A stretch of DNA of 64,000 bases from Lytechinus pictus (lineage: Eukaryota). The position numbers and the translations under genes are program-made. The stretch spans positions 23,562,001 to 23,626,000 of the forward strand of contig NC_087245.1 of NCBI RefSeq assembly GCF_037042905.1. Reading direction: 5' to 3'. Each line of letters starts with the position of its first letter. Positions within the stretch are counted from its first letter, which is position 1. This document shows, piece by piece, positions 15,918-60,000 of the stretch. The notes below the pieces were generated by a model. The model was not told where the DNA came from. It saw only the letters and a list, made by a program, of their open reading frames with translations, and did no database searches.

Positions 15918-17069
15918 ATGGATAAAAATGTAATTATTTTTTCTGCAATAACTGTATCTAGGTGGCCCTTTTCTAAAAACAGGGTCCTTGTCGCCTCCAT
16001 TTCATTTTTATTCTTAACGTTATTTCTATTGGCCAATGATGCACATACTACCCTATATTCTAGAAGGCATGAGTTACCTCTTACAAACAGGAACGGGGAT
16101 GAGGAGAGGAACGAATCAAAACAAGTTACAGTCGCAAATGTCTCCTGTAATGAATTAATGATAAACCATGGATGTTATCAAATTGCCCAAGGCGAACATG
16201 AAAAGCCAATGTACAAGCCACTGGACTTGACGAAGTTAATACGACTCAATTGTTCTAGAAGGGCGCCCTCTGCAATCGTAATAGGAACCAAGAAAAGTGG
16301 CACGACGACGCTCAAGAACTTTCTAAGTTATCATCCAGATGTTGCGTTTGCGGAGAAAGAACTGAAGTTCATCAACAATAACGACCTCAGTGATTTAAAT
16401 AAGTACATAGCCGTAATGCCATACTCGACACCTCACCAAATAACCATGGAAAAAACTCCAGGATACTTCATTCGTCTTAAGGTGCCCAGTCGAATAAAAA
16501 GTGCCATTCCCAATGTGAAATTGATCGTCATTATCCGCAATCCCGTCAATCGCGCCATCTCAGATTTCGTGCACATGAGATACAGTGATGAAACGCGAGT
16601 TGGTGGTGCAAAATTGCTTAAAAGATCACCAAAGCCCGGGATGATTAGGTATGAAGTTTCTCAAACGTTTAGAGAATCCGTGCTTTTTGAGAATGGCTCT
16701 GTCAGGGAGAACAATGCACTCATCGACACTGGTATCTACGTTAAATATTTTCGCATGTGGCTTCAGTACTTTCCTTTGGACCAGTTTCTTATCCTTGACG
16801 GGGAGGAATTCGTCAAAGCTCCAACTCCCACCATGCACCGTGTGGAATCCTTCCTGGATATCAGACCATTTTTCACGGAGGACCACTTTTATTTTAATGA
16901 AGAGAAGAAGTTCCACTGTTTGAAAAAACCGCTTAATACTTGTATGTCGAAAAATAAAGGAAGGCCACACCCCTACGTGGATGAAGATGTCATCGAAAAG
17001 TTAAATGATTTTTATGCGCCCTTTAACAAGAAATTAGAAAAGTTGTTAAACAGAACGTTTTCATGGTAA
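15918..17069 (+). CDS. Heparan sulfate glucosamine 3-O-sulfotransferase (HS3ST1)-like Golgi sulfotransferase, paralog 1 (383 aa, single coding exon)
   Basis: Uninterrupted ORF from ATG 15918. N-terminal signal anchor VLVASISFLFLTLFLLA; 5'-PSB IGTKKSGTTTL; HPDV..EKELKF; MPYS...MEKTPGYF; 3'-PB IRNPVNRAISDF; C-terminal FYFNEEKKFHCL..CM..KGRPHP..FSW, colinear with 3-OST-1. Polypyrimidine/AG acceptor at 15541-15559 suggests an upstream non-coding exon; AATAAA at 17319. Confidence 0.9.
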   Translation: MDKNVIIFSAITVSRWPFSKNRVLVASISFLFLTLFLLANDAHTTLYSRRHELPLTNRNGDEERNESKQVTVANVSCNELMINHGCYQIAQGEHEKPMYKPLDLTKLIRLNCSRRAPSAIVIGTKKSGTTTLKNFLSYHPDVAFAEKELKFINNNDLSDLNKYIAVMPYSTPHQITMEKTPGYFIRLKVPSRIKSAIPNVKLIVIIRNPVNRAISDFVHMRYSDETRVGGAKLLKRSPKPGMIRYEVSQTFRESVLFENGSVRENNALIDTGIYVKYFRMWLQYFPLDQFLILDGEEFVKAPTPTMHRVESFLDIRPFFTEDHFYFNEEKKFHCLKKPLNTCMSKNKGRPHPYVDEDVIEKLNDFYAPFNKKLEKLLNRTFSW

Positions 17070-28649: not shown

Positions 28650-29951
28650 TTAGTAAGAATTCGTCCAACTAAGTTCTCGACCAAGAACGTTTGCAAGCTC
28701 TCTATTAAATGGTCTGAAATGATCTTGTAGCTTTATCTTTAAGTCATCACCGACTTCTTCATGTGGTCTCCCCTTTCCTGATGCCATACACATCTCAAAA
28801 GGATCTCGAAGGCAGATAAATCCTTTCGTCTCGTTGAAATAAAACTTTGTATCATCAAAGTAGCGATCGATCCCCAGAAATCCCTCGACCTGTTGGAGAC
28901 CTGTGGTGGGATCCTGCGCAAATTCTTCCCCGTCCAAGATAAGGATCTGTTCTCTAGGATAGATGTTGTACCACTGTGTTAGGTATTTGACATAGCGGCT
29001 CGTATCAAGGAGACGATTAGCAACCTTGAGGCTTCCATTTGTAAAAAGGACCGACTCACGAAAGGTAGGTTTGATTTCATATTGTGGAGCTGAAGAGTGT
29101 TCATTAACCTTTGTAGCGCCTGGATGCATCGCAATAATCGCTAGCTCATGCATATAGTTTGACACTGCACGGTTTATGGGTTCACGGAGAATTATGATGA
29201 ACTTGATATCAGGCATTTTCTTCCGTAGTCTTTCAGCAACTGCTATCCTGTTGTAATAGCCAGCCGTTTTCTCCATAGCAATCTGATCGGGGGTAGAATA
29301 CGGCATCACGTTCTTATATTGGTCGAATTCATTTAATTTATGATGATTTGCAAATTTCAATTCTTTATCTGGAAATGTAATCGATGGGTGGATTTCCAAA
29401 TATGCTTTGAGAGCCGTTGTGCCACTCTTCATTGCACCTGGTATGATAGCATCGGGTCTGCGTTTCTTGCATCCCCTTGCTCTTCGAATATCTGGACTCA
29501 ATAATTTCCTTTCAGGTGGATAAACATTGACGGCTTTCTTACAGTAGCATCCGCGATCAATGTGACCAACCTCACACACAGGCTCGTTCCCAGGTTGGAG
29601 GTACATGAGGCTACTCACGGTTATAGGCGATTTGGCAGTTCTGGTCGGCTTATGCGCTTCGAGAACTCGGATGGCATTGTGCTCACGTGTGCAAGCCAAC
29701 TGAGTAAAGTTGGTACCGTATTGAACCACGTGATGAACTTCCTGCTGATGTCCATCCGACGCCAGGTACGTTGTGAAAAAACATAGCATCAGGAATGCGG
29801 TAATAACAGCGACGGTTACTTTTGATCGTCCGGTTAGTGAAACCTTCGCCATTGCCGTCATGTTGTGAAAAAAATCAAACTGCAGAAATGGAATGCCTTC
29901 TTGCTGGCGTCTCACTTCGATCAGACCTGTTTTATGAATCCATTTTGGCAT
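28650..29951 (-). CDS. HS3ST1-like Golgi sulfotransferase, paralog 2 (433 aa from first ATG; alternative start MTAMAK at 29861)
   Basis: Intact ORF. Signal anchor VTVAVITAFLMLCFFTTYL; PGAMKSGTTAL; KELKFAN; MEKTAGYY; ILREPINRAVSNY; FYFNETKGFICL..CM..KGRPH..LSW. Minus-strand splice acceptor (tttctttatctgaacAG) at 29956-29957, 4 nt before the ATG. Start codon uncertain. Confidence 0.9.
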   Translation of the reverse strand: MPKWIHKTGLIEVRRQQEGIPFLQFDFFHNMTAMAKVSLTGRSKVTVAVITAFLMLCFFTTYLASDGHQQEVHHVVQYGTNFTQLACTREHNAIRVLEAHKPTRTAKSPITVSSLMYLQPGNEPVCEVGHIDRGCYCKKAVNVYPPERKLLSPDIRRARGCKKRRPDAIIPGAMKSGTTALKAYLEIHPSITFPDKELKFANHHKLNEFDQYKNVMPYSTPDQIAMEKTAGYYNRIAVAERLRKKMPDIKFIIILREPINRAVSNYMHELAIIAMHPGATKVNEHSSAPQYEIKPTFRESVLFTNGSLKVANRLLDTSRYVKYLTQWYNIYPREQILILDGEEFAQDPTTGLQQVEGFLGIDRYFDDTKFYFNETKGFICLRDPFEMCMASGKGRPHEEVGDDLKIKLQDHFRPFNRELANVLGRELSWTNSY

Positions 29952-31531: not shown

Positions 31532-33017
31532 TGCTAAGTTCACACCAACAGCGCTTTGATGGCGCTTTAAAGCGGCGTGCAAAGCGGCGGCAAATAGAAA
31601 AACTCTGTTGAAAACAGAGTTTTCCACAAAGTTTTCCAGAAAGTTTTTTCTATTTTTTTTTATTTATTATATTTCATTTTTTAATTTTATAATGTTTTAT
31701 ATTTTATTATCTTTGTTTTATTTTCTCTGTTACAATAATGGTTATTTATCTCACATATAAAACTGATTTTCTGACTTTTTTATTAATTAGTAAGAAAATC
31801 AATTTGTAATAATTTGTAATAATCAATTTAACAAAAAATTGCGTATGTTAAAGATCTTTTATCGCACATATCTAAATTTCAAATTCTGCAACTTGATTCC
31901 TTTAGATTTTCACTCCTGATTTACAATTATAGTAGTATTATCTGATTTTTCATGGGTAAGAAATCAACAACAATAACATCAATAATAATAATAACATCTT
32001 CACAAGTACACATAATAAAAAAATCATTTTAAACTTATATTAAAAATAAACAGAGTGTGCATATAGGAGAATGTTCTTATTTCCAGACACAAAAGTCTTT
32101 ATCTTCATCATCTGCTTCTGACGATATCTGAGCCACTCCTTTCTTAACTCAATCAGGAAGTACCACCCCAGCCATTCTTTGTTGCCAGTCAACAGCACCC
32201 ACTGGAGAGACGAAGTATTCTCTGAGATGATCTTTCTGATGTCTGGCATCCACAGTGGCGAGGTTCCTCCTTGCAGGTGGTTGCGGAACATCTTCCCAGT
32301 GAGGTCCATCTCTCCAGGCCCCTGGTGCGAAGTTGTGCTCTTCATCTTCGTGGTCCACCGCATTGGCTGCCAGCGCCACCCTCTTCCTCAGCAGGTTGTG
32401 GAGCACCACAGCAGTCTCCACCAAATCTCTGACGTTATCTACCTTCTGTTCCAGTGTTCCCAACAGGCACCGGAACCTGTACGTGGCCATGATGCCAAGG
32501 GCATTCTCCACCACTCTCCTCTCCCTTGAGATCTTGTAGTTGCAGATCCTCTGTTCATCTGTCATCCCTATTCTACTGTATGGCTTCATCATATACATGT
32601 ACCTCTTCAGGGCAAAAGCATCGTCACCCAGGATGAAGTAGGGAATATCAGGCTGATTTTCTCCAGGGATAGGGCATGGTGGGGGCAGCCCTATGGACCC
32701 ATCTTCTAGGCATTCGAAGAGCTCAGAGTCTGTGAATATCTGGGAGTCAGACATGTGTCCTTTACCTCCCAGCTCAATCCAGATGAACTTGTACTCTGCA
32801 TCTACCAATGCCAGCAGTGGTATAGAGAAGAACCCCTTGTAGTTGTGGTAGAGCCTGCCTGTGTTTGCTGGCTTCTTAATGGCTATGTGCTTTCCATCCA
32901 AGGCACCAATTGCATGGGGGGGGGGATTCCATCTCTGTTCAAACTGCTGGGCAAGGGTGCTCCATGCTTCACGGGTGGTAGGTATGTTGAAGACCTCATC
33001 TTTATACGCCTCTACAA
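31532..33017 (-). mobile_element. Harbinger element remnant (one terminus plus nuclease gene)
   Basis: TAA|TGCTAAGTTCACACC at 31529-31546 resembles Harbinger termini (TAA target, GCTxxGTTCACAC); the nuclease gene points toward it. The other end is missing. Confidence 0.55.
32149..33017 (-). pseudogene. PIF/Harbinger transposase (HARBI1-type DDE nuclease), 5'-truncated
   Basis: Open frame of ~290 codons: [62 protein letters not shown]. The N-terminus is cut off at 33017/33018 by a hAT MITE terminus. Confidence 0.9.
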
Positions 33018-33406
33018 CAGCGGCGTAACAGGGGCCGGTGGCTAGGGGGGGGGGGACAAGAGCAAAAATTTTCCCGGTCATATCATGGTATGAACAGGCG
33101 TAATGGTGTGAGGAGACGATTTTGAGAGGGCCAGATATTGCGTATCGGGCAGGATTTATCTTATAAAAAAATTGCGAGCGAGCGAAGCGAGCGAGCAATT
33201 TTTTTTTACAATTTTAATACAAAATCAAATTTTGTGATAGATTTTGACATGATATCCAGAGAATAATATATTTCATTCTTCTCTCTTTCCATTCCTTTAT
33301 TTTGTGGTCTGTACCCCACTGTGAACAGGATTCTTTGCGGCAGTAGCGTGAAGAGTACAAAAAACGAGGGGAGGGGCACAGAATGGCGCATGTGCTAAAA
33401 AGCTGC

Positions 33407-36694: not shown

Positions 36695-39600
36695 ATGATT
36701 ACGAACATTTCCAACGATTCCAATGATGTTATTAATGATATTGGTACTAATAATGATGATGAACTTAAAATTGATTTAGATCCAAATGATGGGGCTTCGA
36801 GTGTCATATCCTCAAACTACTACACTCAGGCTTCAGCCAAAAACATTTTCAAAGGTTTACCTTCTTCCTGCTTGTCTATTTTCCATCTAAATATCAGAAG
36901 CCTTAACAAGAATTTTGAAACATTTCGTTCTATTTTTAGATAACTCAGGTTTTCCCCAAAATACAGTAATAGGTTTAGCTGAGACATGGCTGTAAGATGA
37001 ATATATCAATATGAATGCACTCCCAGGTTATGATATACTTACAAATAATCGTGTTGATAAAATTGGTGGTGGTGTTGCAATTTTTGTGCCGAGTCAATTT
37101 GAGTATGTTATTATTGAAGACATGAATTTAATGAATGAAACTGCAGAAACTTTATTTATTGAAATTAGTGATCGTGATAACAGAAAAACTGTATTGGGAG
37201 TTGTTTATAAGCCTCCTCGCAGCAATAGTGCTGATTTTCTAGACACTTTAAATAATTTACTACATTATCATTCTGTTCAAAACAAAAGATGTATCATAAT
37301 GGGAGACTTTAACTATGACCTGTTAGCGAGTGATACTAATATTTTTGCAAATGACTTTTTAGAGACATTCCTTTCTGCCTCCTTTTTGCCACTCATTTCT
37401 AGACCCACTAGAATCACTAATACTTACGCAACTCTGATTGACAATTTTTTCTCCAATATACGTTCAGAATTTAAAGCTGGTATAATTATCTCAGACATGT
37501 CTGATCATTTCCCAATTTTCATGTACTGTTCTAATCAATATCAGCCAAACAAACTTCCCGATTATGTATCTAAGAGGCGTGTGTATAGTGATATAAATAT
37601 ATCTCGTTTGAAACAGAGTTTAGAAGAAGAATCTTGGGATGATGTATTTAGTACAGAATGTGTTGACGAGTCCTACGAAACATTTATTGATATCTTCATG
37701 AGTCATGTTAATGAAAATATTCCTTTTGCAAAGCCCAAGTCCAAAAATTATAAAAGATCACCCAGACTGCCTTGGATAACGAATTCAATTCTTCGTTCGA
37801 TAAATAGAAAAAAAAAATCGATTATACTATACATATATATCAATATTAACTGAGAATACTCGGAGCCAATATACTAATTATAAGAATATACTAACAGGGG
37901 TCATCCGTACTGCTAAAAAGGCATATTACCATGATCAATTTAATCAATGCAAGAATGATCTTTAAAAAAATGGAAATTGATCAATTCTACCATCAATAAT
38001 GGACCAAAGTTTTCAATGATAACTAAGCTTATGCATAATGATTCTATTATTGAAGATAAAGTTCAGATGGCAAATATTTTCAACAATTACTTTTCACAAG
38101 TTGGATTTAAGCTCTCTAGAAGTATACCAACAAACTCCCATTCATTTCATCAATATCTGGGGGATAGAAATCAAAGTTCTATGTTTTTCTCTCCTACGAA
38201 CGCACAGGAGATAATCAAAATTATATCTAGCCTAAAATCAAATAAAAGTGCAGGATTTGATAACATTGATAACAACCTTTTACAGAAAACTATGAATTAT
38301 ATAATTGACCCTCTTATTTATATATTCAATTTGTCATTATCATCGGGAAATATTCCAAAATCAATGAAAATTTCTAAGATAAAACCAGTCTTCAAAAAAG
38401 GTGATATTTCTTTATCAAGTAACTACAGACCGATTTCATTGCTTACAAACTTATCTAAAATTCTTGAAAAATTGGTTCACATACGAACCATATGTTTTTT
38501 TTTTAAAGCACAACATCCTATCCGATACTCAATTTGGTTTCCGGGAAAAGAGTAGCACTTCCCACGCAATACGTTCTTTAGTTCAAACAGTTGCCAAAGC
38601 TTATGACAAGTCTTCGAATACGATTGCTTTGTTTTTAGATTTTTCAAAAGCATTCGATACAGTTGATCATAACATTCTCCTTTATAAACTTTCTCATTAT
38701 GGAATAAGAGGGGAACCACTAAAGTGGTTCAAGAATTATCTAACCGGGCGTTCACAGTTCGTTTCACTTGATTGTAATATTTCTGAACGTAAACCTGTCC
38801 TTTGTGGAGTTCCACAGGGCAGCATTCTAGGCCCACTTTTGTTCATTACTTATATAAATGATATTGATATGTCATCTAGATTGCTTCAATTTATACTTTT
38901 CGCTGATGACTCTAATATATTTCTGTCGCACCCCGACCCAGAGCAATTGACGCAAATATTCAATGACGAACTCAAAACTGTTTCTAATTGGATAACAGCT
39001 AACAAACTCTCTCTTAACCTAGAAAAAACTAGCTACATGCTATTTAGCAACAAGATTACGACTGTACCAAAAGATGTAATTTTAAATGATACTGTCATTC
39101 TAAGAGTGCGATCTACTAAATTTTTGGGACTGATCATTGACGAAAAACTTTCTTGGAAAGCACATATTGATAATATTTGTAAAATCATTGCTCGCAACAT
39201 TGGTGTCATTAGAAAAATAAGTTACTTCTTACCCCATTATATTTTGTTATCATTGTATTCAACGTTAATTTTACCTTACTTGAATTACGGAGTTGTTGCG
39301 TGGGGTAATGCAGCGAATTCTCAAATTAATAGACTTTTTATTTTACAAAAAAGAGTGATTCGTATTATTAGTCATGCAGAATTCAGGGCACATACAAATA
39401 TTCTGTTTTTGAGAAATAAAGTCTCGAAGGTTAAAGATTTATATTCTTTTCAACTCGGACAGTTAATGTACAAGTTTATCAATAAACAATTACCGTTACC
39501 TTTTAATAATATGTTTGTAAAAAATAATACAATTCATAAGCACTTCACTCGCCAGGCGAGTTCCTTTCATTTACCTCTGAATAGAACATCGTTTGCACAG

Positions 39601-39720
39601 AAGACATTTGTTTTTACTGGTCCAAAATTATGGAATTCTTTTTCAAAGGATATTATACAATGTAATTCAATACAAAATTTCAAAGGAAAACTTAAAAAAT
39701 ATCTTCTGAATTCATATTAG
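36695..39720 (+). pseudogene. LINE ORF2 (APE endonuclease + reverse transcriptase) with stops and frameshifts
   Basis: EN motifs HLNIRSL, ETWL, IIMGDFN, SDHFPIF. RT motifs YRPISLL, QFGFR, FLDFSKAFDTVDH, GVPQGSILGPLLF, FADD, KFLG. Split over ORFs 36695-36943, 37011-37853, 37977-38555 and 38401-39720. Confidence 0.92.
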
Positions 39721-49256: not shown

Positions 49257-50483
49257 TCAATAAGCATTCGTCCAACTAAGCTCTCGTCCAAGGACCTTTA
49301 CAAGCTGTCTATTAAATGGTCTAAAGTGATCTTGTAGCTTTTTCATCAGGTCATCATTGACGAACTCATGTTGCCTCCCCTTGTTACTTCGCATACACAT
49401 CTCAAAAGGATCTCGAAGGCAGATAAATCCTTTCGTCTCGTTGAAATAAAACTTTGTATCATCAAAGTAGCGATCGATCCCCAGAAATCCCTCGACCTGT
49501 TGGAGAACTGGGGTGGGATCCATAATAAACTCTTCCCCGTCCAAGATCAGGATGTGTTCTCTCGGAAAGATGTTGTACCACTGTGTTAGGTATTTGACAT
49601 AGCGGCTCGAATCAAGGAGACGATTAGCAACCTTGAGACCTCCATTCGGAAAAAGGACCGACTCGCGAAAGGTGGATTTAATCTCATACTGTGGAGCACT
49701 AGTATTTTCCTGGATATGTATCTCATGATATTCATTACGAGCTACCATATGCATATAGTTTGACACTGCACGGTTTATGGGTTCACGGAGAATGATGATG
49801 AACTTGGTATCAGGCATTGCCTTCCGTAGTCTTTTTGCGATTGGTATTCTGATGAAATACCCAGCAGTTTTTTCTATAGCAATCTGATCGGGGGTGGAAT
49901 ATGGCATGACATCCGCGTATGCATCGTACTCATATGTAAGATGATGATTGGCGAAATGCAGTTCTGTTAGTGGGAATGAAATAGCTGGATGGAGTTCCAG
50001 ATATGCCTTGAGAGCCGTGGTGCCACTCTTCATGGAGCCTGGAATGATGACATCGGGTCTGCGTTTCTTGCATCCTCTCATCCTTAGAATTTCTTCGTTC
50101 AAAAGTTTGATTTCTGGTGGATATGTATTCAACCCCTTCCGGCAGTAGCATCCACGATCAATATCACCCTCCTCGCACACATCACCAAGCTCTTCCCTGA
50201 GCTGCATGTACATGGGGCTTTTTGGAGATTTGATCCCTTTGATCGTGCCTGGGGCAGAAGCAGAAGCTTTGAAGGCATACTGCGGCTGATGAACCCGGGT
50301 AGTGCTATTGGCATTATGCTCAGAAGGGCACTTTTGGAACCTTGCACAGGATTTAACCATCGACAGGAACCGCAATTCCACTGTGAAGATTCCTAGCGTC
50401 AAGAAACCACTGATGGCCACCACCAGCAGGATTGTAATGGCTGTAGTTACCGATGGTCTTCTGACGTGCATTATCATGGTCAT
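49257..50483 (-). CDS. HS3ST1-like Golgi sulfotransferase, paralog 3 (408 aa), close paralog of paralog 2
   Basis: Intact ORF. Signal anchor AITILLVVAISGFLTLGIFTV; PGSMKSGTTAL; TELHFAN; IEKTAGYF; ILREPINRAVSNY; FYFNETKGFICLRDPFEMCM..KGRQH. Candidate minus-strand acceptor AG at 50549-50550. Confidence 0.9.
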   Translation of the reverse strand: MTMIMHVRRPSVTTAITILLVVAISGFLTLGIFTVELRFLSMVKSCARFQKCPSEHNANSTTRVHQPQYAFKASASAPGTIKGIKSPKSPMYMQLREELGDVCEEGDIDRGCYCRKGLNTYPPEIKLLNEEILRMRGCKKRRPDVIIPGSMKSGTTALKAYLELHPAISFPLTELHFANHHLTYEYDAYADVMPYSTPDQIAIEKTAGYFIRIPIAKRLRKAMPDTKFIIILREPINRAVSNYMHMVARNEYHEIHIQENTSAPQYEIKSTFRESVLFPNGGLKVANRLLDSSRYVKYLTQWYNIFPREHILILDGEEFIMDPTPVLQQVEGFLGIDRYFDDTKFYFNETKGFICLRDPFEMCMRSNKGRQHEFVNDDLMKKLQDHFRPFNRQLVKVLGRELSWTNAY

Positions 50484-50759
50484 GATGGTTGAGACAGAGA
50501 GCTTTCTAAATACCTTGGCTTCGTATATTGACCTGCCACCACAAGAGTCTGCATTGTGTAGATAAAAGATACAGGGTATTTTTTAATTACGAGAGAATAA
50601 GACTACACGGCACATCGGGGCATATCAAATAAATTGACGAATTTGTTCGTTTATGGAATGAATTGTATCGACTGTTCCACCCTATTATACGAGGGATTCG
50701 TTATCAAAATACATGTTTAATGGAATTTATTATGAAAATAAAGTAATTTGTGTAAGGAG

Positions 50760-52020: not shown

Positions 52021-52325
52021 TCGAACAATACAAACTCTCTCACACACATATTATATATATAAATATACACTACTCAAAAAAAGTTAAGGACCACTTTTTA
52101 AAACGTACATAAAGATTTTATACAAGGTGTTTTATTTCTGGAAATACCTCAGTACAACTGTCCTAAATGTCCTTAAACACGCTGTAATCAATTTCACGCA
52201 TGGGTGGTTTCAGTTGTTGCACAATGTCTCTCGCATCACTGCACATCCTGAAAAGTGGGCCCCGAGGGGTATCAGCTACCGACATGAAGTGGTAAAAACG
52301 AATGTCTGAGTGTCTTTCAGGCAGT

Positions 52326-52756
52326 TCAGTAACGAGTGTGACCACCTCCTGCAGCAATAACGGCTTCACAGCGCTGTCTCATGGAGCTGATGAGGCGATT
52401 GATGTCTCTGACGTCCAGTGCATCCCATGCAGCCTCCAGAGCCACACCCAGCTGCTGCAGTCCAAGTGGATGGGCTTCGAGCTGCTCGAGACTCCTCCCC
52501 ATCATGTCCCAGACGTGCTCTATCGGGTTTAAGTCCGGGGACCTCGCTGGCCACTCCATACGCTCAATCCCCTGGCCCTCAAGGAACTCGGTCACCACCC
52601 TAGCTCGGTGGGCACGGGCATTGTCATCCATGAAAATGATGTTTTGTCCCACATTTTCTGCAAATGGCACCACTATAGGTTCAAGGACCTCATCCCTGTA
52701 CCTCACTCCTGTCATTGCTCCCCCTGGGACCACGTAGAGACGAGTACGGTTGGCGT
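52326..52756 (-). pseudogene. Inverted duplicate of the transposase 3' end (D2, E and C-terminus) inside the left TIR
   Basis: The ORF track 52326..52775(-) matches the transposase C-terminus from ANRTRLY to GGHTRY except one D/Y difference; it has no DNA-binding domain and no first catalytic Asp. Confidence 0.9.
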
Positions 52757-52798
52757 CCGTCTTTAGTCTGTACAATCAACAACTTGCCTACAACAGCA

Positions 52799-53827
52799 AT
52801 GCCAAGACACCACCTAAGTGAAACAGATGTAGCCAGAGCCCTAGGGATGCTGGAAGCTGGCCTCAGTCAGCGAAGAGTAGCCAGAATGATGGGCGTGTCA
52901 CACAGTGTCATTAGCAGAGCAAATCAAAGACACCGAGAGACAGGGCTATACTCCGAGAGACCCCGCAGTGGCCGACCAGTTTCGACAACCCCTAGAGATG
53001 ATCGCTACTTGACGAATCTCAGCCTCCGCAACCGCTTTCACAGTGCACGCCGCCTCAACAATGACTTCGCTGCAGCAACTGGAGTGATTGTTTCCACTCA
53101 AACAATCCGTAACCGACTTCACAGAGCCAATATGCATGCCAGACGGCCAGCTCAGTGTGTCCCACTCACCCCTGCTCACAGAAGAATTCGTCTCAACTGG
53201 GCCCGGGAGCATGTCAGATGGACCAGACAGCAATGGCGTAGAGTTCTGTTCACAGATGAGAGCAGATTTTCCCTTGACCACAATGATGGACGTTCGAGAG
53301 TCTGGAGGCGACCAGGAGAGAGATTTGCAGACCCCTGTATTGCAGAACATGACCGTTATGGGGGAGGCAGCGTCATGGTGTGGGGAGGCATCACCTACGC
53401 CAACCGTACTCGTCTCTACGTGGTCCCAGGGGGAGCAATGACAGGAGTGAGGTACAGGGATGAGGTCCTTGAACCTATAGTGGTGCCATTTGCAGAAAAT
53501 GTGGGACAAAACATCATTTTCATGGATGACAATGCCCGTGCCCACCGAGCTAGGGTGGTGACCGAGTTCCTTGAGGGCCAGGGGATTGAGCGTATGGAGT
53601 GGCCAGCGAGGTCCCCGGACTTAAACCCGATAGAGCACGTCTGGGACATGATGGGGAGGAGTCTCGAGCAGCTCGAAGCCCATCCACTTGGACTGCAGCA
53701 GCTGGGTGTGGCTCTGGAGGCTGCATGGGATGCACTGGACGTCAGATACATCAATCGCCTCATCAGCTCCATGAGACAGCGCTGTGAAGCCGTTATTGCT
53801 GCAGGAGGTGGTCACACTCGTTACTGA
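52799..53827 (+). CDS. Tc1-like transposase, DD34E, 342 aa, apparently intact
   Basis: ATG 52799 (MPRHHLSE). Paired-like HTH with RSGRP linker; VLFTDESRF (D1); VMVWGGI; FMDDNARAH (D2); WPARSPDLNPIEHVW (E, 34 residues after D2); ends GGHTRY. No stops or frameshifts. Confidence 0.95.
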   Translation: MPRHHLSETDVARALGMLEAGLSQRRVARMMGVSHSVISRANQRHRETGLYSERPRSGRPVSTTPRDDRYLTNLSLRNRFHSARRLNNDFAAATGVIVSTQTIRNRLHRANMHARRPAQCVPLTPAHRRIRLNWAREHVRWTRQQWRRVLFTDESRFSLDHNDGRSRVWRRPGERFADPCIAEHDRYGGGSVMVWGGITYANRTRLYVVPGGAMTGVRYRDEVLEPIVVPFAENVGQNIIFMDDNARAHRARVVTEFLEGQGIERMEWPARSPDLNPIEHVWDMMGRSLEQLEAHPLGLQQLGVALEAAWDALDVRYINRLISSMRQRCEAVIAAGGGHTRY

Positions 53828-54299
53828 ACTGCCTGAAAGACACTCAGACATTCGTTTTTACCACTTCATGTCGGTAGCTGATACCCCTCGGGGCCCACTT
53901 TTCAGGATGTGCAGTGATGCGAGAGACATTGTGCAACAACTGAAGCCACCCATGCGTGAAATTGATTACAGCGTGTTTAAGGACATTTAGGACAGTTGTA
54001 CTGAGGTATTTCCAGAAATAAAACACCTTGTATAAAATCTTTATGTACGTTTTAAAAAGTGGTCCTTAACTTTTTTTGAGTAGTGTATATATATACTCGG
54101 TAGATATTCCACGTGTTGAAGTAATATTAAGAGAAACAAGGTTGAAACTTTCATGCTTATTGATTAACATTATATATTGTGACGTCGAAATGACGTTTTA
54201 TTATTTATTATGATCTATGTTTTTTAGCCTAATGCGTCTCCATGACAATACGCCTAGTTACACAAGGCAATTGTACATGGAAACGCGGTACTTTTGTCA

Positions 54300-54342
54300 T
54301 TCACTTGATAAAGACGGTATGTACTCGTCGAAAATTTGTGGA
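54300..54342 (+). ncRNA. Minimal type I hammerhead ribozyme motif (U3-A8 variant) in a Penelope-like terminal fragment
   Basis: TTCAC-TTGATAA-A-GACG(gtatgtact)CGTC-GAAA-AT-T-T-GTGGA gives stem I TTCAC/GTGGA, stem II GACG/CGTC and a palindromic AATT stem III. AATAAA at 54347. Bracketed by a ~30-bp inverted repeat (54129-54159 / 54365-54395). Confidence 0.55.
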
Positions 54343-54899
54343 CTTCAATAAATTTTGTTGGATTAAAGCATGAAAGTTTCAACCTTGTTTCTTTTATATG
54401 AACATTCTAAACAATGTGATCCTGAACAAGATGCGTATGTAACTAAATAATTACTCCGACCGCGAAGTGCGAGCCTTTTTTAATACACATTCTTGGCCTG
54501 AAATGGGACATGATAAGGACTTTTTGCAGTTACCCATATATACAAGATACAATTCAACAATCAAATAATGCGAGCGCGAAGCGCGAACAATTTTTGTAAT
54601 TCCGACCTGAAATTGGAAATAGTAGGCACTTTTTGTAATCATGAACAAGATAGGTATATAACTAAGTTGATGGAAGCACGAAGTGCGAGCGGGGAAAATT
54701 GTCCCTAAAGCGGGGGAAAAATTGTCCCTAAAAATGCTTTGGAAATCATGAAAAGGATGGGTAATTGGGCATCTTCCTACATTAATAATGCGAGCTGGAT
54801 TCTCGGCATTTTTAAAGTTTTTCTTGTCACAAAGAATTTTTGAACGTGTTCAATTTTTTATGATGTTTTTAAAGTCAAAGTATGTTTGGTCTTGGTCGG

Positions 54900-57045
54900 A
54901 CCCAATGACTTATGATTCAGTTTTTTTTCTTCTTCTTTCTGTCGTTGTCATTATATACTTCTTTTTGGAGAACGGAAGTTCAAAATGAAAAGTATATTAT
55001 AACATATATTTTTACTTTTTAGCACATCAAAACAAGTTTAAAACGTTCCTGATAGTTCGTTCATTAATCAAGATGTTTGTGACTTCTATTCTGTTTTGTT
55101 TCCTTTCCGCTGTTGTCAGAGTAGTAACGATTCATTTATATATATATATATATATTTTTTTGGGGGGGGGGGTAACGGGAGTTTATAACGAAAGGTGTAT
55201 AAAATATATATTACCTGTTGGCCTACTCAGAACAATTTTGAAACGTTCCTGATGGTTCTAAGATGTTTGTGATTTATATTTTGTTTTATTTTTCTTACGT
55301 AATTTACTATTCTTTTAGGAAAACGGCGTTCATAACGAAAGGTATATAAAATATATTTTTAATTCTGAGCAACTCGAAATAATTTCAAAACGTTCCTGAT
55401 AGTTTGTTTATTTATCTAAGATGTTTTTTTTTACTTCTGTTCTCTTTTATTTCCCTTTCCGCTTTTATCAGAATAATACGTCTTTTATGTTTTATTTTGG
55501 AGAACGGGAGTTCATAACGAAATATAAAATTATATAAAATATATTTTTAATTGTGAGCAACTCGAAACAATTTTAAAACGTTCGTTCGTTCATTAATCGA
55601 AGATGTTTAAGACTTCTATTTTGTTTTATTTTTCTTGCGTAATTTACAATTCTTTTAGGAGAACAGCGTTCATAACGAACGGTATACAAAATATATTTTT
55701 AATTGTGAGCAACTCGAAACAATTTTAAACGTTCCTGATAGTTCGTTCATTAATCGAAGATGTTTGTGACTTTTATTTTGTTTCATTTTTCTTGCGTAAT
55801 GTATTATTGTTTTAGGAGAACAGCGTTCATAACGAAATATATATAAAATATATTTTTACTTTTTAGCACCTCAAAATGATTTTAAAACGTTCTTAATAGT
55901 TCGTCCATTAATCTAAGATGTTTGTGACTTTTATTCTGTTTCATTTCCTTCCGTCTGTTATATTTCTGTTTGGAGAACGGGAGTTTTTTAACGAAATGTA
56001 TATAAAATATATTTTTACTTGTGAGCAGCTAAAAACAATCTTATACCGTTCCTGATTGTTCGTTCATGAATCTGAGATGTTTGCGACTTTTATTCTGTTT
56101 TATTTTCCTTGCGTCTTTTATATTTCTTTTTGGCGAACGGAAGTTCATTAACGGACATAAAATTTACTTTTATATTTGTAAGCACTTCAAAACAATTTTG
56201 AAACGTTTCCGATAGTTCGTTCATTAATCGAAGATGTTTGTGACTTGTATTTTATTTTTCTTGCGTAATTTACTATTCTTTTAGGAGAACAGCGTTCATA
56301 ACGAAAGATGTATAAAATATATTTTTAATTGTGAGCAACTCGAAACAATTTTAAAACGATCCTGATAGTTCGTTCATTAATCTAAGGTGTTTGTGACTTC
56401 TATTCTCTTTTATTTCCCTTTCCGCCGTTATCAGAATAATAAGTCTTTTATATTTCATTTTTGGAGAACGGGAGTTCAAAACGAAAGGTATATAAAATAT
56501 ATTTTTAATTGTGAGCAACTCGAAACAATATTAAAACGTTCCTGATAGTTCGCTCATTAATCGAAGATGTATGTGACTTCTCTTCTGTTTTATTTTCCTT
56601 CCGTCTGTAATATTTCTTTTTGGAGAACGGGAGTTTTTAACAAAATGTATATATTTTAGTTGTGAGCAGCTCAAAACAATTTTAAAACGTTCCTGATAGT
56701 TTTTTTTAAACGTTCCTGATGATCTGAGATGTTTGCGACTTTTATTCTGTTTTATTTTCCTTGCGTCTTTTACTTCTTCTTGGAGAACGGGAGTTCATAA
56801 CGAAAGGTACATGAAATTTACTTTTATATTTGTAAGCACTTCAAAACAATTTTAAAACGTTCCTGACAGCCTTCTTTCATTAATCGGAGATGTCTGTGAC
56901 TTCAATTCTGTTTTATTTTTCTTGCGTAATTTACATTTCTTTTTGGAGAACGGCGTTCATAACGAAAGGTATATAGAATATATTTTTGATTGTGAGCAAC
57001 ACGAAGCAATCTTAAAACGTTACTGATAGTTTGTTCATTTATCAT
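54900..57045. repeat. ~160-bp satellite, ~13 diverged units
   Basis: GGAGAACGGGAGTTCATAACGAAAGGTATATAAAATATATTTT...AAAACGTTCCTGATAGTTCG recurs every ~155-180 bp. Confidence 0.9.
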
Positions 57046-57059
57046 TTGTGTTTGGTGTG

Positions 57060-60000
57060 TAGAGTCACCTATCATAAGCCGAGCAGACGAGAACCTGAAT
57101 TTGGTGTCATGTGTTAAACCCACTGATCTCTCCGAAGATCAGTGGTTAAACCCGAGTAACCCACACAGTCACCTATCATGATAGGCCGAGCAGACGAGAA
57201 CCTGAATTTGGTGTGTTATACTCGAGTAGCCTACACAGTCACCTATCATGATAAGCCGAGCAGACGAGAGGCTGAACTTGGTGCGTTAAACCCGAGTTGT
57301 AGTCTATTCTACGCAGACCCGCATGTTGCTAGAGTCGGTTCTCATGGAGGTTTTAAGAAAAATAACTTGAAAACAATGAACTGAATCTTGGGAATTTTAA
57401 AGTGACCTAAGCAAAAGAGATTCCAGATTTTACTTTTTACTCTCCACTAGCGGAAGGAACAATTTAAAGAATAATTTGTTTTAAACCTAATAAACGAATG
57501 AAATAAATAAAAACAGCAAACTTTCCGAGATATTCTGGTAAATCATGTGAACAAAAGTGAAAATTACAATAGCATTCAATTTAACAGGAATGATGTCAAT
57601 TAGGAGTACTATAAAATAAAAAGTTTGTAGTTTTAAACCTGTAGGATATAATATATTCTTACCCAACACCCCCCCCCCCAAAAAAAAAAAATCATGATGA
57701 AATAAATGAATATGAGTGCGTGCCAGCATTGGATTTCAATCTAAAACAAAGGTAATTATAGTTTCTCTTGCATAGGAAAAATTGCGATTTGAATTTAACC
57801 TGTTTTGAGCAAAGGAAATGTTTTCGGACCAAATCCTGTCATGTTTTTTTTTAATGCTAACGTACGAGCGCTAGGCCACACAGTCACCTATCATGATAAG
57901 CCGAGCAGACGAGGACTTCAATTTGGTGAGTTAAACCCGAGTTGTAGTCTATTCTACACAGACCCGCAAGTTGCTAGAGCCGGTGCTAGAGTCGGTTCTC
58001 ATAGAGGTTTTAAGGAACATAACTTGGAAACAATTGAAGACGATCTTTCCAATCAGCGTTTTTTTGCTCTTAGCATTGTTTATTCCTCACAAGATTGGTC
58101 TTATTATATAGATAAAAGTTTAAATTTTCTGAACAGTAAAATAAAATGCGCATTTAACATATTTTGGTAACCGATATTTAGCTTAGAAACAAATAAAAAA
58201 ATTCAAGAAATATATGTGAATAAACAAAGCATATTTTCACTTAGAAATCACACTTGCGTCACATTAATATTATAATCAATAAAAAGCATAGACATTCTTC
58301 TTCACGACTGAACAAAAATTATGAAATTTCATTACGTAGCAAAGTCAAGGAACCACAAAAAATACGGCAATATCCATCGCGAAATGATTTGAATTGCAGT
58401 TAAATTGCCGAAGCATTATGAGGCAACAGCGGCGAACGGACTTTCATACATCATTAAAAACCCGGAGTTGAGAGGCAAACGGTCTGTGGCCAAATCTGTA
58501 ATGCCATTGTTTTGATGAGTGCGGGGACTTTGGTTAGAACCTCTGACTCTGTGATTTTTTTTTAATTATTATATTCCTACCCAGCTCTTTTTTCTCTTTT
58601 TATTTTCATGTGAGATTCTATTCAGACCTGCATTTATTAAATCTTACTTCTTAATTGCTGCTTTTGATTTTCAAGTTCTTGATTAGATTCTACACTTATT
58701 TGGGCAGGGATGGGAGGGGTAGAGGATGAGTTAAAAGTCTAGTCCACAACAAATTAAAAATTGTTTGAATAGAGTAATTTCCCTTGTTTTTTGTGTTTTT
58801 TACTCAAAACAGTTATATCCACAAAACAATGATATGCAAATTAGAGTTGATTATGTCACATCACATTCATTTCAATTTTTTGGCATTTTATTTTTTGTTA
58901 TTTAAATTTGAATCAAAGTTTTTATGAAATTTTCTGCAATATTTTATTATTTTTCTTTAAATTCAAATGAACTTTTGGTTGGGTGGACTTCTCCTTTACT
59001 CTTCTCATGGAATGCATAGCAATATTTATCCAGAAACAAAATTGTCTTAAAATATGCAAACCAGTAATTGGACACATGTTCACTTTCCTTTCATCTAGGC
59101 CACTTCCTCACATCCACCGGGCTTACAGTCTTATAACAAAAATGAACCATCGCACAACTGCACACAACATTCAGAGTGCTTCACAATAAATATTTCAATT
59201 TTGTTCATACATGCAATTATTATTGTGGAAAACAAATAAAAGGCTTACCCATATTCAAATGCCGTTTAAAAGGTCAAATTTATTATACCTTTCGAGAAAA
59301 AAATTGTGACGATATAATTATACATGACACTTAACTTTCAGCAATCACCACGTTAGATAACTGATACAGAGTTGCTAACAAAATCTAACTATTGGGCATT
59401 GCAAGAAACTTATGTTCAATTGCAAATCAAGCGTAAGTCTCAAATTCAAATACAAGCGTAATAAGTCGAGTTGCAAGTGCAATTCAACTACATGTTTCTG
59501 TTTAATCAAAGGACTTACCCTTGATTTGGGACGTGTGATTGAGTAGAAAATTTCTCAAAAAATGCCCGAATTACATTAAAATTTTTCTTTCGTTTTAAAT
59601 TGTTGGAGTTTTTCAATAAACACTGACTCACTCACTGACTTCTGGAGTGGAGCAACACAACGACGACTCTCCAGTGGACAAAATCGGTCTTTACAGTTCA
59701 CAATTCAATAAAAACGGGTAAAGTAACACAGTTCTGGTTCACTTTTAGTCGGAAGTTGTCGAAAACAGAAATCGGATACCACATTACATGAAGAAAACGT
59801 TAAATTCGAAAGATATTGAACAGGTCAGTAAGGTGATGCACAGAGGGATGAGCTCGTTGATTGTGTGACGTCATTATTTTCGACTGTTTCGACTGCGCGA
59901 TTGTCGGTCTGGGGGCGGCTGGGGGGCTGAGAAGGGTCTCTAATAATTTCATTTCTTGCATTTCCACGACATCTATAAGACTTTTTAGTGACATTTTCGT

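What the first reader, a model, noticed from the sequence alone, without database searches (positions are those of the whole stretch)
52068..54085. Tc1 transposon whose left end is an inverted copy of its own transposase 3' end: a built-in 689-bp hairpin
Seen: the 689-bp TIRs are gap-free with only two mismatches noticed. The left arm holds 431 bp of antisense transposase CDS (second catalytic Asp, the Glu and the C-terminus), leaving only 42 bp of unique sequence before the ATG. TA duplications flank both ends, the ORF is intact, and the flanks are not mirrored. Known: Tc1 TIRs are usually non-coding (tens of bp, ~200-250 bp in IR/DR types, 462 bp in Tc3), and inverted duplications of transposon sequence read from a host promoter (maize Mu killer) make siRNAs that silence the family in trans. 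Inference: any transcript crossing the element in either direction folds into long transposase dsRNA. It lies ~1.5 kb beyond the splice acceptor of paralog 3, so it is plausibly intronic and read by the host promoter (candidate donor GTAAGT at 59518-59513). It is either a natural animal 'killer' allele or a mobile, self-limiting Tc1 design.
Basis: partly seen in the sequence, partly recalled or inferred. Interest (0 to 1): 0.85.

Follow-up and report, generated by a model that had tools for sequence, protein, structure and literature searches.

The report
Mirror-image Tc1 copy, one of ~140
This is a real mirror-image copy of a young jumping gene from an apparent sea urchin, and about 140 such two-right-end copies make up over half of the family, likely as by-products of DNA repair; whether their hairpin RNA silences the family is untested.

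Summary
Confirmed: 689-bp arms with 2 mismatches, TA on both sides, intact 342-aa DD34E ORF, unmirrored flanks. It is not a unique allele. The genome has 395 right ends but 130 left ends. On the part surveyed, 40 of 64 copies are right-right (RR), with 23 junction types; 25 of 40 keep an intact ORF and 7 keep two. Four junction types have spread to 25, 16, 11 and 4 exact matches; the window's junction is single-copy. Arms are copied in cis and still homogenised: 14 SNPs shared by both arms of one element against 0.23 expected. Likely origin: template switch during gap repair, then microhomology joining and later central deletions. End replacement is published (Rpmar17, Goblin, Galileo), but in non-autonomous copies. 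Silencing is untested: RR lineages kept multiplying and are as old as normal copies. The scan noted this RR population before at other loci of this genome. New variant of a known kind.

The parts
52066..52067 (.). left TA target-site duplication, inside a TA-rich tract
52068..52756 (-). left arm: inverted copy of positions 1208-1896 of the normal 1896-bp element, i.e. a second right end
52068..52262 (-). copy of the right 195-bp TIR serving as the left terminus
52326..52756 (-). 431 nt of duplicated transposase CDS (codons 200-342 and stop, with D244 and E279), antisense to the main ORF
52756..52757 (.). junction 1208/567 of the normal element, 1-bp overlap, single copy in the genome
52757..52798 (+). 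42 bp left of the 609-bp 5' region; left TIR and the 166-bp tandem units are lost
52799..53827 (+). intact 342-aa DD34E Tc1 transposase ORF; one missense change (D317Y) against a normal copy
53397..54085 (+). right arm (normal positions 1208-1896); carries both arm mismatches
54017..54022 (+). AATAAA near the right end; mirrored on the minus strand at 52136-52131 (function inferred only)
54086..54087 (.). right TA target-site duplication
49257..50548 (-). coding exon of a heparan sulfate 3-O-sulfotransferase 1-like gene (paralog 3); acceptor-like AG at 50550-50549
59513..59518 (-). candidate splice donor GTAAGT of an unproven upstream exon; if used, the element is intronic
   Evidence: untested

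Best explanation
This is one copy of a young DD34E Tc1 family in which 40 of 64 surveyed copies have the left end replaced by an inverted copy of the right end, likely because gap repair after excision switches template from the left to the right terminal repeat and copies inward. Steps: (1) shown: the two termini share 34 identical bases, RR junctions carry short microhomology or inserted bases, and both arms of an element share its haplotype. (2) Inferred: the strand growing from the left flank jumps to the right TIR, runs into the ORF 3' part, and is joined by microhomology to the strand growing from the right flank. (3) Shown: RR units transpose whole, with TA on both sides, unique flanks, and 4-25 exact matches per junction for four types. 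(4) Inferred: a preference for the right end helps them spread and explains why no left-left copies are seen. (5) Shown: arms keep being rewritten from each other and centres suffer secondary deletions. (6) Inferred: the window's single-copy junction is either such a central-deletion derivative or a fresh switch. Its ORF has probably lost its promoter. Hairpin RNA would arise only from read-through and is best seen as a side effect.
For: 395 right vs 130 left ends, controls 0. 43 of 43 RR copies have TA on both sides; flank mirror identity averages 0.28, maximum 0.39. Junction counts 25, 16, 11, 4 and 1. Of 23 junction types, 15 are clean joins; all 15 overlap by at least 1 bp and 8 by at least 3 bp, against 43% and 5% at random, p about 3e-7. 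Marker 1479C: in both arms of 12 RR, neither arm of 50, one arm of 0; also in 3 of 34 normal copies. 14 further SNPs shared by both arms in 13 of 66 RR, 0.23 expected. Divergence RR 1.82/kb vs normal 1.90/kb, p=0.80. Same switch model proposed for Goblin (PMC3814204, passages). Mos1 with two right ends transposes 26-fold better in vitro (PMC4505599, passages).
Against: A symmetric switch should also give left-left copies, yet none was seen among 100 of 130 left ends; the bias is unexplained for this transposase. Breakpoints alone do not exclude few founders plus central deletions. L037 has the 1107/243 junction without the 1479C marker that the other 10 of 11 carry. The 8 junction types with inserted or mismatched bases were left out of the microhomology test, and one of them (606/283) may be a blunt join. 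No RR junction appeared in contigs of 4 public runs, whose species relation to this genome is unknown and which drop rare variants. No empty allele of this locus was found.
Confidence: 0.75

Rival explanations
1. Family-level self-limitation: RR copies arise as by-products, but read-through of any of about 140 hairpin loci would make transposase dsRNA that ended the burst. Compatible with the best explanation.
For: In 36 of 40 RR both arms cover ORF position 1500, and in 12 of 40 the ATG. Predicted duplex about -1009 kcal/mol for 1351 nt of the window copy. SNP counts of 19 normal copies look Poisson (mean 2.4, variance 2.5), as after one short burst. Fold-back of TIR read-through RNA silences C. 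elegans Tc1 (review PMC3878927, passages). A>G/T>C changes in TIRs in two RNA-like runs hint at editing of duplexes.
Against: RR are as old as normal copies and multiplied afterwards to 25, 16 and 11 matches. Burst-then-decline is reported for all mariner lineages studied (PMC4161770, abstract and passages). No change of that kind was listed in the ORF 3' part. No small-RNA data.
Confidence: 0.25
2. Few founders plus revision: one or a few head-to-head dimers amplified, and most junctions, the window's included, are later central deletions (the model proposed for Rpmar17).
For: 19 of 23 junction types are single in the survey. Secondary deletions next to the junction occur (L049, L059, L039). 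The window shares break 566/567 with the 695/566 type and SNP 1558T with L105 of the 642/213 type. No left-left copies.
Against: At least two founders are needed: 1479C is in normal copies and in both arms of three junction types. No full dimer was found; only 1 of 26 junctions gives an element above about 2.95 kb, 4.7 expected (threshold chosen afterwards). Sharing one transversion is within chance (9 of 128 are shared).
Confidence: 0.3
3. This locus is a Mu killer-like allele: the host sulfotransferase promoter reads through it and its siRNAs silence the family in trans.
For: It lies 1.5 kb upstream of an acceptor-like AG, with a lone GTAAGT 9 kb upstream. Mu killer is likewise two copies of one TIR with an inverted transposase part (PMC3440606, abstract and passages).
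Against: Its arm is the sixth shortest of 40 among more than 130 equivalent loci. Intron, expression and tissue are unproven. An intronic hairpin would likely stay nuclear and be edited (own knowledge). The same paper disputes the read-through model even for Mu killer.
Confidence: 0.04
4. Fold-back assembly artefact.
For: Long palindromes can come from chimeric long reads (own knowledge). No independent read support was obtained.
Against: The mirror stops at the element ends in 43 of 43 RR, arms carry their own SNPs, and identical junctions recur on many contigs with different flanks.
Confidence: 0.01

Closest known systems
Rpmar17 and Rpmar49 of Rhodnius prolixus (PMC4678618; second part of section 13 and passages read)
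   Same: Tc1/mariner superfamily; 5' part replaced by 3' part; long TIRs with transposase homology; many different breakpoints (227 copies); an apparent size ceiling.
   Different: Those are described as non-autonomous and nearly all under 1 kb, shorter than the parent. Here 38 of 40 RR are longer than the 1896-bp parent, 25 of 40 keep an intact ORF, 7 keep two, normal copies coexist, and arm-to-arm copying is measurable.
Goblin MITE from Ozma, Aedes aegypti (PMC3814204; passages)
   Same: Both sides derive from the right subterminal region; template switch from left to right TIR and microhomology joining proposed.
   Different: 213 bp, 54-bp TIRs, one junction, 15 copies, no ORF.
Rearranged Drosophila mariner MITEs Dromar7, 11, 28, 36 (PMC4161770; passages)
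   Same: One end replaced by the other, giving long TIRs; always the same direction within the study.
   Different: Opposite polarity (3' replaced by 5'); non-autonomous.
Galileo of Drosophila willistoni and D. mojavensis (PMC4168063, PMC3573991; passages)
   Same: The end of the transposase ORF is recruited into both TIRs (over 500 bp in one copy); conversion between long TIRs proposed.
   Different: P superfamily; no intact ORF among the D. mojavensis copies, whose longest-TIR copies lack the ORF.
Maize Mu killer (PMC3440606; abstract and passages)
   Same: Two copies of one end with an inverted part of the transposase gene.
   Different: A single locus with shown silencing, made of 5' halves. 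Here over 130 mostly ORF-bearing mobile loci of 3' halves and no silencing data.
Engineered Mos1 RR donors (PMC4505599; passages)
   Same: Two right ends.
   Different: Artificial, 28-bp IRs; the 26-fold gain is not tested for this transposase.

Membership tests
DD34E Tc1 transposon | DD34E catalytic triad with paired-like HTH domain | tested here: met
   D153-D244-(34)-E279; DDE_3 and HTH_Tnp_Tc3_2 above cut-off
DD34E Tc1 transposon | TA target-site duplication and TIRs | tested here: met
   TA/TA in 43 of 43 RR and 13 of 14 normal copies; 195-bp TIR in the normal form
End-replacement long-TIR derivatives (Rpmar17/Goblin type) | One end replaced by an inverted copy of the other end of the parent | tested here: met
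   left arm = normal 1208-1896 inverted
End-replacement long-TIR derivatives (Rpmar17/Goblin type) | Transposes as a unit (same junction, different flanks) | tested here: inconclusive
   met for four sister junction types; the window's own junction is single-copy
MITE / non-autonomous short derivative | Short and without an intact transposase ORF | tested here: not met
   2018 bp with intact ORF; 25 of 40 RR intact
IR/DR-type Tc1 (Sleeping Beauty-like) | About 200-250-bp TIR with inner direct repeats of the end motif | tested here: inconclusive
   195-bp TIR, but the inner CCACTTTT motif is inverted relative to the outer one; binding not tested
Killer locus (Mu killer / Ac killer) | Inverted duplication of transposase sequence | tested here: met
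   431 nt of CDS in both arms
Killer locus (Mu killer / Ac killer) | Transcript across both arms | not tested
   the read-laying request for this locus did not complete; intron unproven
Killer locus (Mu killer / Ac killer) | siRNAs from the arms and silencing in trans | not testable with these tools
   no small-RNA or genetic data; indirect evidence against a prompt dominant effect

The most novel reading that the evidence does not exclude
An animal Tc1 family whose own repair by-products took it over: two-right-end palindromes that keep one or two whole transposase genes out-transpose the parent, are kept identical by arm-to-arm copying, and at the same time seed over a hundred transposase hairpin loci that shut the burst down, so that killer alleles are a built-in, mobile outcome of Tc1 transposition.
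Probability: 0.2. Interest if true: 0.72.

Novelty: new variant of a known kind. Interest (0 to 1): 0.42.

Why it matters
The single copy is ordinary within its genome. The population is useful: a young family (about 0.2% from the majority sequence) caught with parent and some 140 palindromic derivatives side by side, dozens of junctions and countable arm-to-arm conversions. It makes three questions directly testable: how long-TIR and foldback elements arise (called elusive in PMC4161770), whether one end of a Tc1 is favoured in nature, and whether coding-sequence hairpins silence an animal DNA transposon. Small RNAs should fall on arm-covered ORF sequence and not on the 5' region if they do.

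Tried and rejected
Unique local rearrangement: rejected. Mirrored flanks or artefact: rejected. Left-left copies: none among 100 of 130 listed left ends; the nearest inward pair is 224 kb apart. Empty allele: no second copy of the locus among the 40 of 2427 candidates scored; the right flank is a separate repeat that begins after TA tracts, so its 13 matching loci of 14 fetched give no empty site. Shared ancestry of L039 and L052 through a 580-bp insert at the same site: doubtful, the inserts differ at many places (48 of 590 ungapped). Link of the window to L105 by one SNP: within chance. Contigs of four public runs on a normal copy: no joints; 14 A>G/T>C rows confined to the TIRs, 5 of which match the other TIR and may be chimeric; runs are only guessed to be RNA and are of unknown species. 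A depth step near normal position 177 in run X9 is not taken as a start site. Reads on the window locus and host exon: the tool did not complete. RdRP search in the genome: no match, but the control rang nowhere, so uninformative. Bacterial promoter scan: irrelevant. Literature searches for an autonomous or twin-ORF Tc1 palindrome found none; for echinoderm endo-siRNA none useful (PMC6396948 passages); for palindrome revision only listings seen. No supplements were read; Repbase/Dfam and subscription journals are not covered.

Full report
Observation. The element spans 52068-54085. Its arms are 689 bp, gap-free, with two mismatches, and TA lies on both sides. The ORF 52799-53827 encodes a 342-aa Tc1 transposase with a DD34E triad. 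The left arm holds 431 nt of the CDS. The host appears to be a sea urchin: the neighbouring sulfotransferase's only four other hits at E<=1e-90 are 63-66% identical and named from Lytechinus pictus and Strongylocentrotus purpuratus.

The family. A genome search scored 40 of 297 candidates and returned near-identical copies. The normal form is 1896 bp, with the ATG at 610, 195-bp TIRs 84% alike (first 34 bp identical) and a 166-bp tandem duplication in the 5' region. The window copy is normal positions 1896-1208 inverted, joined to 567-1896. Exact 30-mers specific for each end occur 395 times (right) and 130 times (left), controls 0. If there are no left-left or solo ends, that implies at least 132 right-right (RR) copies. 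I surveyed the first 100 of the 395 right-end places (C1, C2, C3 to 68.9 Mb): 40 RR, 23 normal and 1 truncated copy. All 40 RR were held as sequence; 21 of the 23 normal copies were fetched and 2 paired by coordinates only. Copies with mismatches in both end words are missed. No left-left pair occurs among 100 of 130 left ends.

RR copies are real and mobile. 43 of 43 complete RR have TA on both sides, and their flanks neither mirror each other nor match between loci beyond short repeats. The 40 surveyed show 23 junction types, 19 of them single. Exact junction words count 25 for 606/283 (two divergent ORFs, 2905 bp), 16 for 642/213, 11 for 1107/243, 4 for 695/566 and 1 for the window's; these are lower bounds. 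25 of 40 RR keep an intact ORF and 7 keep two, against 12 of 20 normal copies. Arms range 164-1291 bp, median 1189; the window's is sixth shortest. RR and normal copies are equally diverged: 166 SNPs in 91,108 bp and 46 in 24,259 bp, p=0.80 (one normal locus, L071, contributed no bases).

Mechanism. All 15 clean junctions overlap by 1-7 bp, 8 of them by 3 or more, against 5% at random; the other 8 types have inserted or mismatched bases, partly copied from nearby, and were left out. A marker at 1479, present in 3 of 34 normal copies, is in both arms of 12 RR, neither arm of 50 and one arm of none. Fourteen other SNPs are shared by both arms in 13 of 66 RR, where 0.23 are expected from cross-element pairs. 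Twelve of those 13 belong to multi-copy junction types, so one arm is rewritten from the other after the subfamily is born. This fits a repair-time template switch between ends, as proposed for Goblin (PMC3814204, passages). The steps themselves are inferred. A rival, few founders plus central deletions as proposed for Rpmar17 (PMC4678618), probably contributes: secondary deletions beside junctions are seen, and the window's break lies 1 bp from that of 695/566. The marker needs at least two founders; L037 fits neither scheme cleanly. The lack of left-left copies needs an end bias. Mos1 has one (PMC4505599), but it is untested here.

Hairpin and silencing. The window copy is predicted to fold into a long duplex if both arms are transcribed. 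Its own ORF has only 42 bp of 5' sequence, so expression would likely depend on read-through. Each arm has an outward AATAAA, so read-through from either side could end after the second arm; that is inference. Against a prompt dominant killer: RR are as old as normal copies and multiplied after birth. For a later shutdown: SNP counts of 19 of 20 normal copies look like one short burst, though that course is reported for mariner lineages generally (PMC4161770). In four public runs laid on a normal copy, two RNA-like ones list 14 A>G/T>C changes only in the TIRs, 5 explainable by the other TIR, and no run shows an RR joint; species and molecule type are uncertain, so this is a weak hint both ways.

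Comparison. End replacement with long, partly coding TIRs is in print for Rpmar17/49, Drosophila mariner MITEs, Goblin and Galileo, in non-autonomous or defective copies. My searches found no report of a Tc1 family dominated by ORF-intact or twin-ORF palindromes, within the open library only. It is built like Mu killer but the defining features of a killer, transcript and siRNA, are untested. After forming this reading I found four earlier scan notes on other RR copies of this genome with similar counts; they are not independent evidence.

Verdict. Real; one single-junction member of a large mobile RR population; new variant of a known kind; interest 0.42.

Noticed in passing
L031:315-3219 and sister loci (G000:C1:2968814 etc.): The most copied RR type (606/283, 25 exact matches) carries two complete divergent transposase ORFs; each 1291-bp TIR is a whole gene.
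   Followed up: yes
26 junction types from L001-L070: RR lengths cluster near 2.8-2.95 kb and 2.45-2.55 kb; only 1 of 26 exceeds about 2.95 kb, 4.7 expected by shuffling breakpoints (threshold chosen afterwards). A similar ceiling was noted for Rpmar17. Unexplained.
   Followed up: partly
L039:2505-3095, L052:2716-3306, L086:1864-5684: Three insertions at the same TTAA-type site (normal position about 1787) of the right TIR: two related 580-bp elements and a different 3.8-kb one.
   Followed up: partly
L092:2126-7187; L093:2739-9745; L112:100-3481: Clustered or nested RR copies: a truncated RR directly followed by a full one, two copies 2.4 kb apart, and one element with a duplicated arm segment.
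   Followed up: no
L022 and L025 (C8, 9 Mb apart): Two 1730-bp normal copies have the same flanks in inverted orientation, suggesting a segmental duplication or assembly duplicate.
   Followed up: no
window 54097-54400: A separate high-copy repeat (2427 first-look candidates) that begins right after TA tracts at 13 of 14 loci fetched; it contains a 31-bp inverted pair.
   Followed up: partly
window 15918-17069, 28650-29951, 49257-50483: Three single-exon ORFs of heparan sulfate 3-O-sulfotransferase-like genes.
   Followed up: partly
window 32149-33081: Harbinger-type DDE_Tnp_4 ORF (310 aa).
   Followed up: no
window 37011-39720: Three consecutive ORFs that look like a frame-broken LINE endonuclease/reverse transcriptase (by eye, not scanned).
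   Followed up: no
window 54950-57070: Tandem array of about 158-bp units, 13 copies of the core.
   Followed up: no
runs X1-X14: The element is held at 0.90-0.93 of sampled words by runs of five coded organisms and marine metagenomes, which could mean close relatives or horizontal transfer.
   Followed up: no
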